Source: Saccostrea cucullata | Lineage: Eukaryota | Assembly (NCBI RefSeq): GCF_032062105.1 | Contig: NW_026928881.1 | Coordinates: 186,001 to 250,000, forward strand | Reading direction: 5' to 3' | DNA length: 64,000 nucleotides | Part shown: piece by piece, positions 3,001-18,000 of the stretch | How positions within the stretch are numbered: position 1 is the first letter of the stretch | Layout: each line of letters starts with the position of its first letter | Program-made: the position numbers

Positions 3001-6000
3001 TGACCCGAGTATTGACTAAAGGTGAAAATTATAGCCATTGTGAATCTGCGTTGAGTAACTTGGTCATCAATTTAAATTATGGATTTGTTTTGCTGACTTA
3101 ATGTTAAGTATGGGCTTCGGCTGTTGCTATCAATAATGGGGTGAGTGCGATGTAAAACTGTTAAAGACTTGTTTTTGCTTTTTTTGGTTTTGTTGCTTTC
3201 CTGTTCGTAATCTAAAAAAACCTAGACATTGGGCTTCTAAAAACTTTTTATATAAAACAGAAAGGATAAATGAAAATGTGAGGAATAACTACATTTTCAT
3301 GTTTTTACACTGTATTTTAGAAATTCCTAACAATTAATGTAAGAGTCTGAATTCAAATAGAACAAATTGGAATAGTGAACACACACTGCAGAGAATGGAG
3401 TGGGTGGGGGTGGGGGGTATGTATTTCTATGGTGAATGGCAAGTTGTCAGGACAGTGTATTTCTGTAAAGTCATCACTTTGGTAAATTGAGCTTTCGATT
3501 AAGCTAATACAAAAATTTCTTATCAAAACATTCCATACTATTATGACCAGAAGATATACAGTCTAAAGTTTAATTCAAATTAAGGCTTTAAATTCTTGAG
3601 AGATTTCACTCAACATATATTTCTTCTTATGCCATTCCATGGAAACTGCAATATGTACAATGAATCACATAGATTAAATTCTCTACGGGATCGATTTAAA
3701 ACGAAATAACTAGAAAAAGCATGCCTTTTTGTAAGCTTTATCTAAAGCTCTCTCCATCTCTCTCTCTTTTGATAAACTAAAAAACTTTAATGATATATAT
3801 TCCCAGTAGTCAATTACTTAGATGTATAGCACATGTTACTTTAATTACTGTCAGGATATAATCAAATTACAGATTTTATACCAGCACAGGGTAGAGCCCA
3901 TTCAGATTTGGATAATGTAAGATTTGTTATTGTTTGAACAATAATAAGTACCATTAATCAAGAACACTAAACAGGCTGCTTTACAACCTTTATTCTGATA
4001 CTTTACCTATAACATGTGAGTAACCAGAGCATATAATTTTCAGGGTGTATTATCCTTCAATGCTACATCTTGGCAACTCTTTGTTGGGCTTGCAATCTCT
4101 TTTGAACATGTTGAAATGAACCTCTTTCAAAAATTTTAACATTAATATATAGGGCACATGCAACATCAAGCAACATTACTTGTATCTGTTATATACAAAT
4201 ACATAAAAGTTTGGTCCATTTTAAGATTTATGCTTACTCCAGATATTAACAGCTGGAGAAATGTAAACAATTTGTGTGATATTGTAACAGCTTTAACTGA
4301 CTACATAGTTCAGCAGACATTAAAAAATGTAAAACATAGAGTGATAGACCTGTAGTCAAAGATTATAAAGTTCATCATACATGCAAGTTTTGTCTAGGTA
4401 GATCTAAAGTTTCTTGAGAATAGACCTGCTCCAAAAAAATTAACTGGTCACTCATCTGGAAAATATGTCAGATCCAGCATCCAGAGTAAAATGGTTAGCA
4501 TCAATCCCTTGATGAATGATATAAGCAAGTTTGGTCCAGGTAGTGCTTGCCAATGTATATTACTTGGGAACTGACCTGCTCAAAAAATTTAACCTGGTCA
4601 CTCATCTAAATATCATCATCAGACCCAGCATCCAAAACAAGTAGTGTCCATCTCTTACTAGATGCATCAAACAAGCAAGTTAAGTATTGGTAAGGTATAT
4701 AGTTACTTGGGAATAAACCTGCTCTAAAAACTTTAACCTGGTCTCTCAATCTCATCTTGAAAATGTAGGTCAGACCTAGCATCCGAAGCAAGTCTGTTGC
4801 TGTCCATCCCTAGGTACATCATTCATGCAAGTTTAGTCCAGGTAAGGCTTAAAATTACATGGGAATGGACTTGCTCTAATAACTTGAACTGGATCACCGA
4901 GACTAACACCAACAATATAATGAAGGTGAGCTAAAAATAAACAAGTTGACAAACTGGGGTGTGGATCAAAAGAATCAGAAACCTTTACTTGAAGCTTTGG
5001 CTCAGGTGATTTAAAAAACACACACAGTGGACCTTCAGATATCCGGATGCCAGATATCCGGATGCTTCAGTATCCGGACGATTTTTCATCGGAACGGATT
5101 TTTAAAATTTCATATTGTCTTGTTTAACTGTTGATTCAGGTATCCGGACGCTTCACATATCCGGACAAATTGACTGGGAACCAAAGCGTCCGGATAAATG
5201 AGGCTCCACTGTATATATCATGCAATATGAAAGAGTGGACATTAAATTCCCAAGTATAAACATCAGAAACCTTCCATGCTTAATATTAATTGACAACTTT
5301 GTTTCATTCTATGCTTGTAATATACAAGATAGTGATACCCAAATATGTATGCTAACAAAAATAAATTCAAGAGCATCCCATTTGAATGTAGTATGCTACC
5401 TATATTTGTATATAAACACAAGTTTTATTCTGACTGATTTTTAAAGTCTACGGCATTATCCTGATTTATTTAAGTATTTATCATAAGTGGCTTAACTCAT
5501 GGAGAAACGTAAGCCATATATCCATGTATACACAGAAGATATACAAAGAAAATACATGTGTAAAGAAATTTTAACTTTAATTCAAAACAAACGTAACCTA
5601 CACTAAGTAAAATTAATCCTTGTACACAACCTAAGTTTAATTAAAACAATAAATCAAAAAACGCCATCAGGTCATCTTTTATATGGATTACAACGACCTT
5701 GACATGCAATGCACACATATCAAGTGTTCCAATTTCCCCCCAAAGTTAACCGTCAAGTGAGGTACAATTGACATTTGTTTTTTTCTGATCAATATAACAA
5801 TGTTTGGCTCCTTATCTTCTGTAGTGAGTGAGGAGGGGGAGAATGGATCCACAACTCACCGGCGGAGATATAAAATCAAAGAGAGAAGAGCCATGAGGAA
5901 CAGATATCAGAAAGTCCCAACATATGCTTTAGGTCCCGATAAAGATATTCTTAATTATGCCTATGGATCAGAGACCAATCTTGAAAGGTGAGCATTAATA

Positions 6001-15000: not shown

Positions 15001-18000
15001 GAACCAGGGGCATAGGAGTAGCGGGGTGGAGCGCCTGTCCATTAACTCTGACAACATACCCCCACCACCAAAGTAAGTCTGGCTATGTGAGCAACTTAAA
15101 TGAGGATCAGCTGATAGTTTATCTTCATATAGCCAGGGATATCTCAGCAGTGTTTAGTGATATTTATATTATAAAGGGGTATATATTAATTTCAATGTAG
15201 ATATAATTTATTATTTATTTTCTCTTGTATTTTTTGATATTTTTATTAAAGTGTAGTGAGAGGATACATGTGCTTAAAAGCATAAAGTCATTCCATGTTC
15301 ACTTACATGTAACTTTTAGGCCATCAAAAAATATTTAATGAACTCCAACCAACATTTTTCAAGGAAAGTAGGTACTTTAGCAGGTTTCTTTAAATTATAA
15401 AACACATTAGATAAATATTGCACAAATCTACACAGAAAAAAGTACTGTATGTGTACATGAATTGGCATATTCAAAATTTAGCACAATCAGTGGTTATTAA
15501 TTGAGTTATAAGTGTATTGAATTCATGAATGAGCTCTACACACAACACAACATGTATTTGTAAATGATTTTTTTGTGGTTTATACCAATATTCATGAATA
15601 TGCACATTGTTGTCCATTCCATTAAGATAAGTCCGTAAAATTTGAAACCCATGTTTTTTTCACTATACATACACATATGTTGTAAGTTTATTGTTTCATT
15701 TACTATATTAAAGCTTGAAAAACTTTTCACCTAAATTAGTGTCTTTAAAAAATTTAATAAATATCTTACTGCATGAGATCTGTATTTTCCTAGAAACAAA
15801 CACAAAATAAGATGAATTTTAATTACTGATTCTGAAAAAAATATGTGTAGGGTCAATGGTTTTGATGAGTCAGTCAGATGACATGAAACAAATTTATTTT
15901 TATTGTTGGCCTTAAGGCCAATTTATAGAACCATAATGATACTCATGTATCTCACAATATGCAGTTTATAGGGTGACAGACTGACAGAATGAGAAAATTG
16001 TATTAATATTTTCTAGCTGTCAGATGAAAATTATAAGCAATATACTTCCAGGCTTATTAATTGGCTTTTAGAATATCTGGTTACAAAGGGATTTTTCTCT
16101 GTTTGTCTCAGGTGTACAACATTGAATAGGCCTTCTCATTATGACAGAGTCATAGTGATATGCTTCATATATGATTTTTAGATACCCTTTTATTCTATAG
16201 GATAAACCATCGCAGATCACCAATTTTTGTGACACTCTATTTTGACCCGATATAATTACATGTAATTGGTTTTCCAAAATGTCTGGAGCTGCAATTGATA
16301 GAATTGGTTGTCCTGGAACATGTGGAATGTCTGCTTGATCAGAAAAACATCACAAATTATTACTAATTGCATATTTGAGTGTGCTTCTGTCATGAGTCTG
16401 TTTTGAATACATTTCAAAATGTTGCTGTAAAAAAGTAAAACTTGAAAGAAAAAGCAGACAATAATTATGCTGTCAAATATCATCAACATCTTATGCATTT
16501 CATCAACATTTTACACATACAGGTATTTCTTAAACACAACAGAAACATATTAGTAAGTCGATTGTGATTTCACAATGCTGCTGCATGCGCACTGACCCTC
16601 TGGTGAATATGGCTTCAAGTCCGGTGAATATGAAGTGCTATGAACTGTTTGTATTTGTTCGGATTATGTAGGGACCATTTATAGACTACATTATAATTTG
16701 ATTTATAAACAAAACTCATTATATGCAATAAGATCTTAATAATGTTTGAGAAAATAACGGGGAATGAAAATCACTTTTAATGTGTGAATTCACTATATGC
16801 GTGTTTGATTTAACCAAGTTTTACTGTATTTACAAAGTAATTACATGTGTAGCATTATAGCACAAGGATAATAACCTTTTAGTGGGAATGGAAGCTTTAA
16901 TAGAACATAATTGTATTAAGATCCATAATTGTTCATATGCTTGCATGACTATATAGCATTCATTGACCATAATTAAAGTGTATTAACATCACTGAGGTTG
17001 AGTGATACAAGGATTTATCAACTCCAGCACGCTGCATTTTTGACAGGACTGATATATTATTTTATCATTTTCTTTTTCTTTATTCAGAGTGAGAGTCGAG
17101 TTTTTCACAAATGAAAAATCCCTGAAAGAGCGGCTGCAGCTTTACTTCATCAAAAACCAACGATCAAGTAGGTCATGTCGTATAGATCTGTCTGGTATCA
17201 TTTGATCATGTTGTATATGTCTCATTTATATTTGATCATGTGCTATGGCTGTGTCATATTAATATTTTATCATATGATTATTCGATCATTTTATTTGATC
17301 ATAAGAAGGAGGGCATAATATTGCTTTGCTGCTGTCTGTCGGTCTGTCTGTTGGTCCACCATCAGTTTCCATTCATTTTCTTCGCAGAGGTTGCACATAT
17401 TTAAATGAAATTTGGTACAAATATATCATAAGAATATCTAGATGAAGTTATGTTTTGGTTATGATCTGGCCATTTTAGACAGAATTATGTCCCTTGGACT
17501 TAGAAAAATTCCAATTATTTGGAGGAGGGGGGCATATGTGTTTTAACATTCCAGATATTTGGAGGAGGGGGTGTAAGTGTTTTACAACATCTCTTGTTTG
17601 ATCATGTTGTATGTCGATCTGTTTCATTCACTTGATCATATGGTATGTCTGTTTCATTCATTATATCAAGTGGTATGTCTGTCTCTTTCATTTATCCAGC
17701 TTTCTGTGGTTTCATACTCTGTTTACAGGAATTTATAATTTTTTATGCATTTTGCAACTGTTATTTTTCCACTGGCAAAAATGAAAGCATTTTATTGATT
17801 TTTTTAAATTTTAAATGTAATGATCATATATTTATATTTGCAAATATGTTCATGCATCGTAGTGAAATGTCCAGTCCGTTGTATTTAAGGAACTTTTTTC
17901 ACTCAATTATTAAAATTAAACAAAATTAAGAAATTATAGGTATAAAAATGTAACAAAATTTGATATAACTGATTTTTTAACCAATTTTGCAATTGATAGG

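What the first reader, a model, noticed from the sequence alone, without database searches (positions are those of the whole stretch)
5800..17167. Three interchangeable N-terminal exons for a molluscan Slo2/KCNT channel
Seen: three ATG-initiated ORFs (5800-5987, 8755-8876, 14906-15072) each end at a good donor in phase 2, exactly what the shared exon at 17088 needs. 1b has an in-frame upstream stop, so it cannot be an internal coding exon unless entered by a very close acceptor. Known: mammalian Slack uses alternative promoters (Slack-A/B) whose N-termini change gating kinetics and heteromer formation, and 1b matches the Slick/Slack-A N-terminus. Inference: 1a and 1c are lineage-specific Arg-rich N-termini from separate promoters, paralleling the mammalian switch at a similar junction.
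Basis: partly seen in the sequence, partly recalled or inferred. Interest (0 to 1): 0.72.

Follow-up and report, generated by a model that had tools for sequence, protein, structure and literature searches.

The report
Alternative N-terminal exons of oyster Slo2 channel

Summary
The three ATG-initiated ORFs, their phase-2 donors, their upstream stops and the shared exon at 17088 sit exactly where stated. They are the only three such ORF-plus-donor combinations on that strand, against 0.06 expected by chance.

The window is a Saccostrea genome, almost identical to S. cucullata. The whole Slo2/KCNT gene runs from 466 to about 52529.

- Orthologous oyster proteins show three mutually exclusive N-terminal modules before the residues VRVEFFTN: 25 A, 6 B, 6 C and 0 tandem among 37 proteins.
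- Module A is mostly a two-exon unit. Only 2 of 25 A-type models start at that ATG.
- 1c is not lineage-specific. It occurs in bivalves, gastropods, cephalopods and, recognisably, arthropods including Limulus.
- 1a is shared with scallops.
- 1b is the Slick/Slack-A type and is found as far out as corals.

Separate promoters are inferred, not shown. The exon that should encode S1 is absent from the window.

The feature is ordinary in kind: a new member of a known kind.

The parts
466..514 (+). Exon 0: first coding exon of module A (ATG at 466, 16 codons + G, donor ACAG|GTAGGA, phase 1).
   Evidence: tblastn of S. echinata P0001 residues 1-16, 14/16 identical. Sequence read. G|TG gives the V that follows in P0001.
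5825..5987 (+). Exon 1a as an internal exon of module A: acceptor ccttatcttctgtAG at 5823-5824, phase-2 donor GTGAGC.
   Evidence: 98% identical to P0001 residues 17-71. 21 of 25 A-type oyster proteins enter at this point from an upstream exon.
5800..5824 (+). A possible minor alternative start.
   Evidence: C. angulata X2/X7 begin MFGSNSSL. A at -3. Used in 2 of 25 A-type proteins.
8755..8876 (+). Exon 1b = module B, a first coding exon of Slick/Slack-A type ([11 protein letters not shown]). An in-frame TGA lies 21 nt upstream.
   Evidence: Identity to N-termini: Ostrea edulis X1 92.7%, C. angulata X13 87.8%, C. virginica X13 85.4%, horse KCNT2 68.75%.
14553..14717 (+). Conserved non-coding block upstream of 1c; candidate 5'UTR or promoter element.
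   Evidence: Read-through ORFs from unnamed gigas-like contigs (P0003, P0004) align here at 38-40% with stops (E 0.006-0.008). Nothing aligns between this block and the residue before the ATG.
14906..15072 (+). Exon 1c = module C, a first coding exon (MSNVWFYHRSG ... HRSSGVERLS ... DNIPPPPK), donor GTAAGT.
   Evidence: 82% identical to M. gigas X16 and 71% to C. virginica X9. Also present on a 4646-nt contig that encodes the whole 1311-aa protein. Similarity to read-through ORFs stops at the residue before the ATG.
17088..17167 (+). Shared exon 2 ((R/K)[26 protein letters not shown]), the start of the conserved pre-S1 segment.
   Evidence: Every oyster isoform continues with VRVEFFTN after its module.
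17168..27073 (+). Intron in which the S1-encoding exon (about 98 nt) is expected but not found.
   Evidence: no match on either strand by tblastn with 4 oyster queries or by six-frame motif search.
27074..52529 (+). Remaining exons of the Slo2/KCNT gene: pore, two RCK domains and C-terminus.
   Evidence: tblastn of P0001, P0005 and P0008. 1185 of 1208 residues identical to S. cucullata P0126. Exon-level Pfam: Ion_trans_2 46.4 bits; Slo-like_RCK 31.6 and 29.3 bits.

Best explanation
The 5' 17 kb of a Saccostrea Slo2/KCNT (Na+-activated K+ channel) gene holds three mutually exclusive N-terminal coding modules:
- Module A: exon 0 (466-514) plus exon 1a (5825-5987).
- Module B: 8755-8876.
- Module C: 14906-15072.

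Each module ends in phase 2 and splices to the common exon at 17088, which begins the conserved pre-S1 segment. The resulting channels are identical apart from the cytoplasmic N-terminus.

B and C each start with their own ATG just downstream of in-frame stops. They must therefore be first coding exons, most simply reached from their own transcription starts. That step is inferred.

By analogy with mammalian Slack-A/Slack-B, the choice of module would set gating kinetics, trafficking or partner binding. That step is also inferred.

The modules are old:
- B predates Bilateria.
- C is shared by molluscs and arthropods.
- A is shared at least by oysters and scallops.
For: Anatomy and chance level.

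Single-exon searches:
- 1a found S. echinata KCNT2-like X2 (98% identity; 1 hit among 5 candidates).
- 1c found 8 hits among 26 candidates, including M. gigas X16, C. virginica X9/X12 and a 1311-aa protein on a 4646-nt contig, which must be spliced RNA because the gene spans 52 kb here.

Oyster proteins: 37 were examined, giving 25 A, 6 B, 6 C and none carrying two modules.

Other molluscs: the same three-way choice is annotated in Pecten maximus (A, B, C). B, C and a further type occur in Mytilus edulis, Biomphalaria, Octopus sinensis and Mercenaria.

Completeness within the window: with 105 distinct N-termini as queries, the only hits with E below 0.001 upstream of 17300 fall at 466-513, 5800-5988, 8755-8877 and 14882-15073.

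Module C conservation:
- A mollusc-only profile scores 5 of 15 arthropod N-termini above all 4500 shuffles, and 9 of 15 above the shuffles' 99th percentile.
- Limulus scores 20.9 and 14.5 bits and a spider 8.4 bits, each above all 1000 of its own shuffles.
- Limulus begins MSNVWFY, as the window does.

Module A conservation: the oyster profile scores the Pecten X1 N-terminus 18.0 bits, against a shuffle maximum of 9.4 among 3720.

Functional analogy, from passages of review PMC3850776:
- Slack-A and Slack-B differ only in the N-terminus and are driven by independent promoters.
- They activate fast versus slowly.
- Only Slack-B forms heteromers with Slick.
Against: - No transcript data for this species were available.
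- The two S. echinata RefSeq isoforms both carry module A only, and the S. cucullata model carries none of the modules.
- Most supporting proteins are automated gene predictions. Only modules A and C are also seen on unnamed RNA-sized contigs (P0023, P0006).
- Promoters and 5'UTR exons were not observed.
- As assembled, the window lacks the S1 exon, so a functional product cannot be read from this sequence alone.
- No functional data exist for any invertebrate N-terminal variant (no paper found in searches).
Confidence: 0.8

Rival explanations
1. One reading: 1a is a self-contained first exon that starts at ATG 5800 and is driven by its own promoter just upstream. On this view it is the main form of this module.
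For: C. angulata X2 and X7 begin MFGSNSSLV, matching the window's MFGSLSSVV. The ATG has A at -3 and an in-frame stop 42 nt upstream.
Against: - Only 2 of 25 A-type oyster proteins start there.
- 15 use the exon-0 type, including both models of the nearest annotated relative, S. echinata. 6 use other short upstream exons into the same acceptor.
- The ATG lies inside the pyrimidine tract of that acceptor.
- Five other ATGs lie within the 300 nt upstream, so a transcription start would have to fall within about 90 nt.
Confidence: 0.15
2. Modules B and C do not have their own promoters. They are reached by alternative splicing from a shared upstream non-coding leader or from the exon-0 promoter.
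For: Nothing direct. No 5'UTR structure could be seen with the tools available, so this is not excluded.
Against: - A transcript that includes exon 0's ATG and then splices to a site upstream of the 1b or 1c ATG would meet the in-frame or out-of-frame stops there.
- A conserved non-coding block lies 190-350 nt upstream of 1c.
- The mammalian counterpart uses independent promoters.
Confidence: 0.2
3. In this genome the gene is broken. The S1 exon is truly deleted, and the N-terminal modules are relics of a pseudogene.
For: The S1 exon is not found anywhere in the window. Joining exon 2 directly to the exon at 27074 would be out of frame.
Against: - All other exons are intact and 1185 of 1208 residues match the S. 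cucullata protein.
- The modules keep open frames, donors and high identity to species that diverged long ago.
- Long tandem repeats lie in the same intron, which makes an assembly omission likely.
Confidence: 0.07

Closest known systems
Mammalian Slack (KCNT1) amino-terminal isoforms Slack-A and Slack-B. Source: Brown et al. 2008, as described in review PMC3850776. I read passages of the review; the original paper is not held.
   Same: - Alternative N-terminal coding exons join a common exon just before the V-x-V-E-[FY]-[FY] segment.
- One variant is the Slick-like [11 protein letters not shown] type.
- The channels differ only in the cytoplasmic N-terminus.
   Different: - Here there are three modules, and one of them is built from two exons with several alternative upstream pieces.
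- Module C shows no detectable similarity to the vertebrate long N-terminus. A profile search stops 2-3 residues before the junction in chicken KCNT1, and a catfish N-terminus scores 1.1 bits.
- Promoters and kinetics are untested.
RefSeq predicted isoforms of the oyster KCNT2-like genes (M. gigas X3-X16, C. virginica X1-X13, C. angulata X2-X13, S. echinata X1-X2).
   Same: The same gene, the same three modules and the same junction, with 62-98% identity for A, 85-93% for B and 71-82% for C.
   Different: In this species the modules are unannotated. The S. cucullata model starts with an exon taken from a tandem repeat and lacks exons 0, 1a, 1b, 1c, 2 and S1.
[quoted passage not shown]
   Same: Module C starts directly after Met with an aromatic, hydrophobic head and continues with a basic stretch. 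In 35 distinct N-termini, the median is 5 hydrophobic and 3 aromatic residues in positions 2-8, and net charge +6 in positions 9-40.
   Different: The resemblance is by sequence pattern only. No homology to beta2 was tested, and no current recordings exist. It is an analogy, not a membership claim.

Membership tests
Slo2 / KCNT Na+-activated K+ channel gene | K+ channel pore exon | tested here: met
   The exon at 32938-33141 matches Pfam Ion_trans_2 at 46.4 bits (cut-off 22.5).
Slo2 / KCNT Na+-activated K+ channel gene | Slo-type RCK gating-ring domains | tested here: met
   Exons 38907-39065 and 47087-47221 match Slo-like_RCK at 31.6 and 29.3 bits (cut-off 24). Exon 36771-36935 scores 18.6, below the cut-off.
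Slo2 / KCNT Na+-activated K+ channel gene | Orthology to named KCNT proteins along the whole length | tested here: met
   1185 of 1208 residues are identical to S. cucullata KCNT2-like, and 1251 of 1315 to S. echinata X2. The best solved relatives of this family are KCNT1 chains 5u70 and 8hir (queried with Daphnia P0080).
Slo2 / KCNT Na+-activated K+ channel gene | Complete transmembrane core, including S1 | tested here: not met
   The S1 exon is not found in the window. This is probably an assembly omission.
Slack-A/Slack-B-type alternative N-terminus system | Mutually exclusive N-terminal coding exons joined to one common exon before S1 | tested here: met
   Phase and junction were read. Of 37 oyster proteins, each carries exactly one module.
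Slack-A/Slack-B-type alternative N-terminus system | One variant of the Slick/Slack-A ([11 protein letters not shown]) type | tested here: met
Slack-A/Slack-B-type alternative N-terminus system | Independent promoters for the variants | not testable with these tools
   There are no transcript-start data. The only pointers are upstream in-frame stops and a conserved non-coding block.
Slack-A/Slack-B-type alternative N-terminus system | Variants differ in gating kinetics or heteromer formation | not testable with these tools
   This needs electrophysiology.
Slack-A/Slack-B-type alternative N-terminus system | The long variant is homologous to the vertebrate Slack-B N-terminus | tested here: not met
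   The module C profile does not extend into the chicken KCNT1 N-terminus. A catfish N-terminus scores 1.1 bits, reached by 352 of 1000 shuffles.
N-type inactivation ball-and-chain | Hydrophobic head at the free N-terminus followed by a basic chain | tested here: met
   35 N-termini plus the window's 1c (4 hydrophobic and 3 aromatic residues, net charge +7).
N-type inactivation ball-and-chain | Open-pore block abolished by deleting the head | not testable with these tools
   This needs expression and recording.

The most novel reading that the evidence does not exclude
Module C (1c) is an ancient protostome N-terminal exon, conserved from oysters to horseshoe crabs at the very first residues (MSNVWFY...). 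It works as a tethered hydrophobic-head, basic-chain particle that blocks or inactivates the Slo2 pore. On this reading, promoter choice switches a sodium-activated K+ current between sustained and transient forms. The probability given is for this functional claim. I rate the mollusc-arthropod homology alone at about 0.85.
Probability: 0.15. Interest if true: 0.6.

Novelty: new member of a known kind. Interest (0 to 1): 0.3.

Why it matters
Alternative N-termini are known in mammals to tune Slack channel kinetics and assembly. Finding the same junction with three conserved modules in molluscs has several consequences:
- The switch is an old, general feature of Slo2 genes rather than a vertebrate or oyster invention. 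One module is shared with arthropods and one reaches corals.
- It supplies correct exon coordinates for a species whose current gene model lacks them.
- It flags a missing essential exon in the assembly.
- It offers a testable idea for the function of the conserved MSNVWFY head.

Tried and rejected
- **Homology of module C to the vertebrate Slack-B-type N-terminus.** A profile of 14 mollusc and arthropod N-termini plus 45 shared residues (A1) aligned to chicken KCNT1 only from profile position 56. The apparent extension into chain 8hir_A simply overlaid the B-type motif. A catfish fragment whose match in the representative search began at profile position 23 scored 1.1 bits against the mollusc profile. 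Rejected for lack of signal, not disproved.
- **Further N-terminal modules in the window.** I looked for counterparts of C. virginica MPEAGLMMTVSKRER, of the Mytilus, Mya, Mercenaria and Octopus X1 types, and of the other arthropod types. No hit with E below 0.001 fell outside the four known pieces. The 4-residue pieces (MKCT, MKEK) are too short to look for.
- **The S1 exon.** Not found.
- **Representative-library search with A1.** It gave 221 proteins at E up to 0.001, mostly short fragments matching only the shared exon. Only 5 of the 150 listed matched from profile position 1. I had 10 named: spider, Limulus (2), two insects, an aphid, a clam, a catfish, a nematode and a coral.
- **Papers.** Brown et al. 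2008 is not held. Searches found no paper on invertebrate Slo2 N-terminal isoforms, and one search found none on Slo2 N-type inactivation. Search 31 and the passages read from PMC10942592 added nothing usable.
- **Not possible here.** There were no RNA-seq junctions, no CAGE and no bivalve genome DNA, because no eukaryotic genome collection was on hand.
- **Spliced model.** Window sequence was searched exon by exon only. Full-length comparisons used database proteins against the window.
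Full report
**What is there**

- 1a, 5800-5987: 188 nt.
- 1b, 8755-8876: 122 nt.
- 1c, 14906-15072: 167 nt.

All three start with ATG and end with two spare bases before GTGAGC, GTTAGT and GTAAGT respectively. The exon at 17088-17167 follows a strong acceptor. Its first base completes AGA (R) or AAA (K), and it then reads [26 protein letters not shown]. In-frame stops lie 42, 21 and 93 nt upstream of the three ATGs. The window contains no N.

A mechanical count was made of ATG frames of at least 40 codons with a phase-2 donor matching at least 8 of 9 consensus positions. 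On the plus strand of 1-17087 it returns exactly these three. The minus strand gives none. 300 Markov simulations gave a mean of 0.06 and a maximum of 1.

**The gene and the organism**

tblastn of database Slo2 proteins against the window maps about 30 exons from 466 to 52529 on the plus strand.

Exon-level Pfam scans:
- Pore exon: Ion_trans_2, 46.4 bits.
- Two exons: Slo-like_RCK, 31.6 and 29.3 bits.
- The three N-terminal modules and exon 2: no family.

The window matches the S. cucullata KCNT2-like protein at 1185 of 1208 residues and S. echinata X2 at 1251 of 1315. It is therefore a Saccostrea genome, essentially S. cucullata.

Window sequence was searched exon by exon. Whole-length comparisons used database proteins as queries.

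**Exon 1a is mostly not a first exon**

The 1a peptide found S. echinata X2 at 98% identity. That protein begins MKQNGSISDGKHVIIT and then continues VSEEGENG....

The upstream 16 residues map to window 466-513, 14 of 16 identical.

Among 37 oyster Slo2 proteins, 25 carry this module:

| Entry into module A | Proteins |
|---|---|
| Exon-0 type | 15 |
| MPEAGLMMTVSKRER (C. virginica) | 3 |
| MKEK | 2 |
| MKCT | 1 |
| Starts inside 1a | 2 |

**Exons 1b and 1c are true first coding exons**

1b:
- It matches the N-termini of Ostrea edulis X1 (92.7%), C. angulata X13 (87.8%) and C. virginica X13 (85.4%).
- It carries the [11 protein letters not shown] motif seen in horse KCNT2 (68.75% over 32 aa) and in PDB KCNT1 chain 8hir_A.

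1c:
- It matches M. gigas X16 and X8 (82%) and C. virginica X9 and X12 (71%).
- It also matches a 1311-aa protein encoded on a 4646-nt contig. That contig can only be spliced RNA, given a 52-kb gene.
- ORFs that read through the gigas-like and virginica-like genomic sequence upstream of 1c stop resembling the window at the residue before the ATG. A separate block at 14553-14717 is conserved but full of stops.

All four ATGs have A at -3. None of the 37 oyster proteins carries two modules.

**The modules are not lineage-specific**

I compared the N-termini, up to the VRVEFFTN junction, of about 220 held Slo2 proteins.

Module C, with the pattern MSNVW.YH ... HR.SGV..LS ... D.IPPPP, occurs in:
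- Bivalves: Pecten, Argopecten, four Mytilus species, Potamilus and Mercenaria.
- Gastropods: Haliotis, Gigantopelta, Batillaria, Pomacea and Biomphalaria.
- Cephalopods: Octopus.

Arthropods have a matching type, MS.[YFV]FFRLHNLRR ... SDSLDE.ALQIPR. Three lines support homology:
- A mollusc-only profile scores 5 of 15 arthropod N-termini above every one of 4500 shuffles, and 9 of 15 above the 99th percentile.
- Chelicerate fragments named after the representative search score 20.9 and 14.5 bits (Limulus) and 8.4 bits (spider). Each is above all 1000 of its own shuffles.
- Limulus begins MSNVWFY, exactly as the window does.

Module A: the oyster profile scores the Pecten X1 N-terminus 18.0 bits, against a shuffle maximum of 9.4 among 3720. 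The two share the stretch RYHKVP. The next real score, 9.9 bits, belongs to an Arg-rich arthropod sequence and is probably a composition effect.

Module B reaches corals. There the RYRLKD...ER part is shared and several alternative pieces precede it.

Three or more alternative N-termini are annotated side by side in Pecten maximus, Mytilus edulis, Biomphalaria, Octopus sinensis and Mercenaria.

**How it most likely works**

Shown:
- The exon anatomy, phases and junction.
- Conservation of each module.
- Mutually exclusive use in orthologous models, and in two RNA-sized contigs (modules A and C).

Inferred:
- B and C have their own transcription starts.
- The variants differ functionally.

The functional analogy rests on passages of review PMC3850776:
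- Slack-A and Slack-B differ only in the N-terminus and have independent promoters.
- Slack-A activates fast and Slack-B slowly.
- Only Slack-B co-assembles with Slick.

The two vertebrate KCNT1 chains in the PDB diverge immediately before VQVEFY, the same point as the oyster junction.

Composition:

| Module | Length (aa) | Arg | Net charge |
|---|---|---|---|
| 1c | 55 | 8 | +6 |
| 1a, internal part | 53 | 7 | +3 |
| 1b | 40 | 3 | -6 |

So 'Arg-rich' holds for 1a and 1c.

**A bolder reading**

Module C always begins, directly after Met, with an aromatic hydrophobic head followed by a basic stretch. In 35 N-termini the medians are 5 hydrophobic and 3 aromatic residues in positions 2-8, and net charge +6 in positions 9-40.

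This is the layout of N-type inactivation particles such as the FIW head of BK beta2 (passages of PMC5068790). The match is a pattern only, and I rate the functional claim at about 0.15. I found no paper on this point (search 54).

**Against, and open**

- No transcript evidence exists for this species.
- S. echinata RefSeq has only module A, in both of its 2 isoforms.
- The S. cucullata model has none of the modules. It starts with 12 residues that map at 100% to 18701-18736, inside a 166/330-bp tandem repeat.
- The exon that should encode S1, about 98 nt between 17168 and 27073, is absent from the window on both strands. Skipping it would break the frame. Every other exon is intact, so I take this for an assembly omission, but a real deletion is not excluded.
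- Homology of module C to the vertebrate Slack-B N-terminus was tested and not found.
- Supplementary files were not consulted. Brown et al. 2008 was not held.

**Verdict**

This is a real and correctly located feature, but it is ordinary in kind. It is the oyster version of the known Slo2 alternative-N-terminus arrangement, already predicted in RefSeq for neighbouring species.

- 1a is preceded by exon 0.
- 1c is ancient.
- 1a is not oyster-specific.

Noticed in passing
window 17168-27073: The exon expected to encode S1 (about 98 nt, perfectly conserved in four other oysters) is absent from the whole window on both strands. Joining exon 2 directly to the exon at 27074 would shift the frame. 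This is probably an assembly omission made without any N.
   Followed up: partly
window 18701-18738, within tandem repeat 18630-19630: The first 12 residues of the S. cucullata RefSeq KCNT2-like protein (P0126) map here at 100%, inside a 166/330-bp tandem repeat, and are followed by a GT donor. That model therefore appears to begin with a repeat-derived exon in place of the real 5' exons. The same 166-bp repeat family recurs at 33652-34452.
   Followed up: partly
window 32275-32569: Three degenerate tandem copies of the acceptor plus the first 30 nt or so of the real exon at 32542-32634 lie just upstream of it. Their acceptors are intact, but the copies carry stops or a 2-nt insertion. They may act as decoy splice sites.
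   Followed up: partly
window, between about 43061 and 44704: A small exon of the S. cucullata protein (residues 553-561) was not placed by tblastn. It lies where gigas-like P0006 and C. virginica models differ from M. gigas X16 by a 9-residue acidic cassette, so it is probably an alternative micro-exon.
   Followed up: no
held proteins P0111-P0124 (Phlebotomus) and P0376-P0384 (Pocillopora): Some sandfly models carry the B-type and C-type modules in tandem. In corals, several alternative N-terminal pieces join inside the B-type motif, just before YRLKD. The module boundaries are therefore not the same in all phyla.
   Followed up: no
window 8779-8814 and 15035-15070: The start of module B ([12 protein letters not shown]) resembles the end of mollusc module C (SDSFDTIPPPPP in Haliotis; tblastn E 0.23). 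This hints that the two modules arose by exon duplication. The similarity is too weak to claim.
   Followed up: no
window 56222-62041: Downstream of the gene lie several arrays of 130-295-bp tandem repeats sharing 'GGTCAAAGTCAAAAGGTCAAAG'-like units. This is satellite-like DNA.
   Followed up: no
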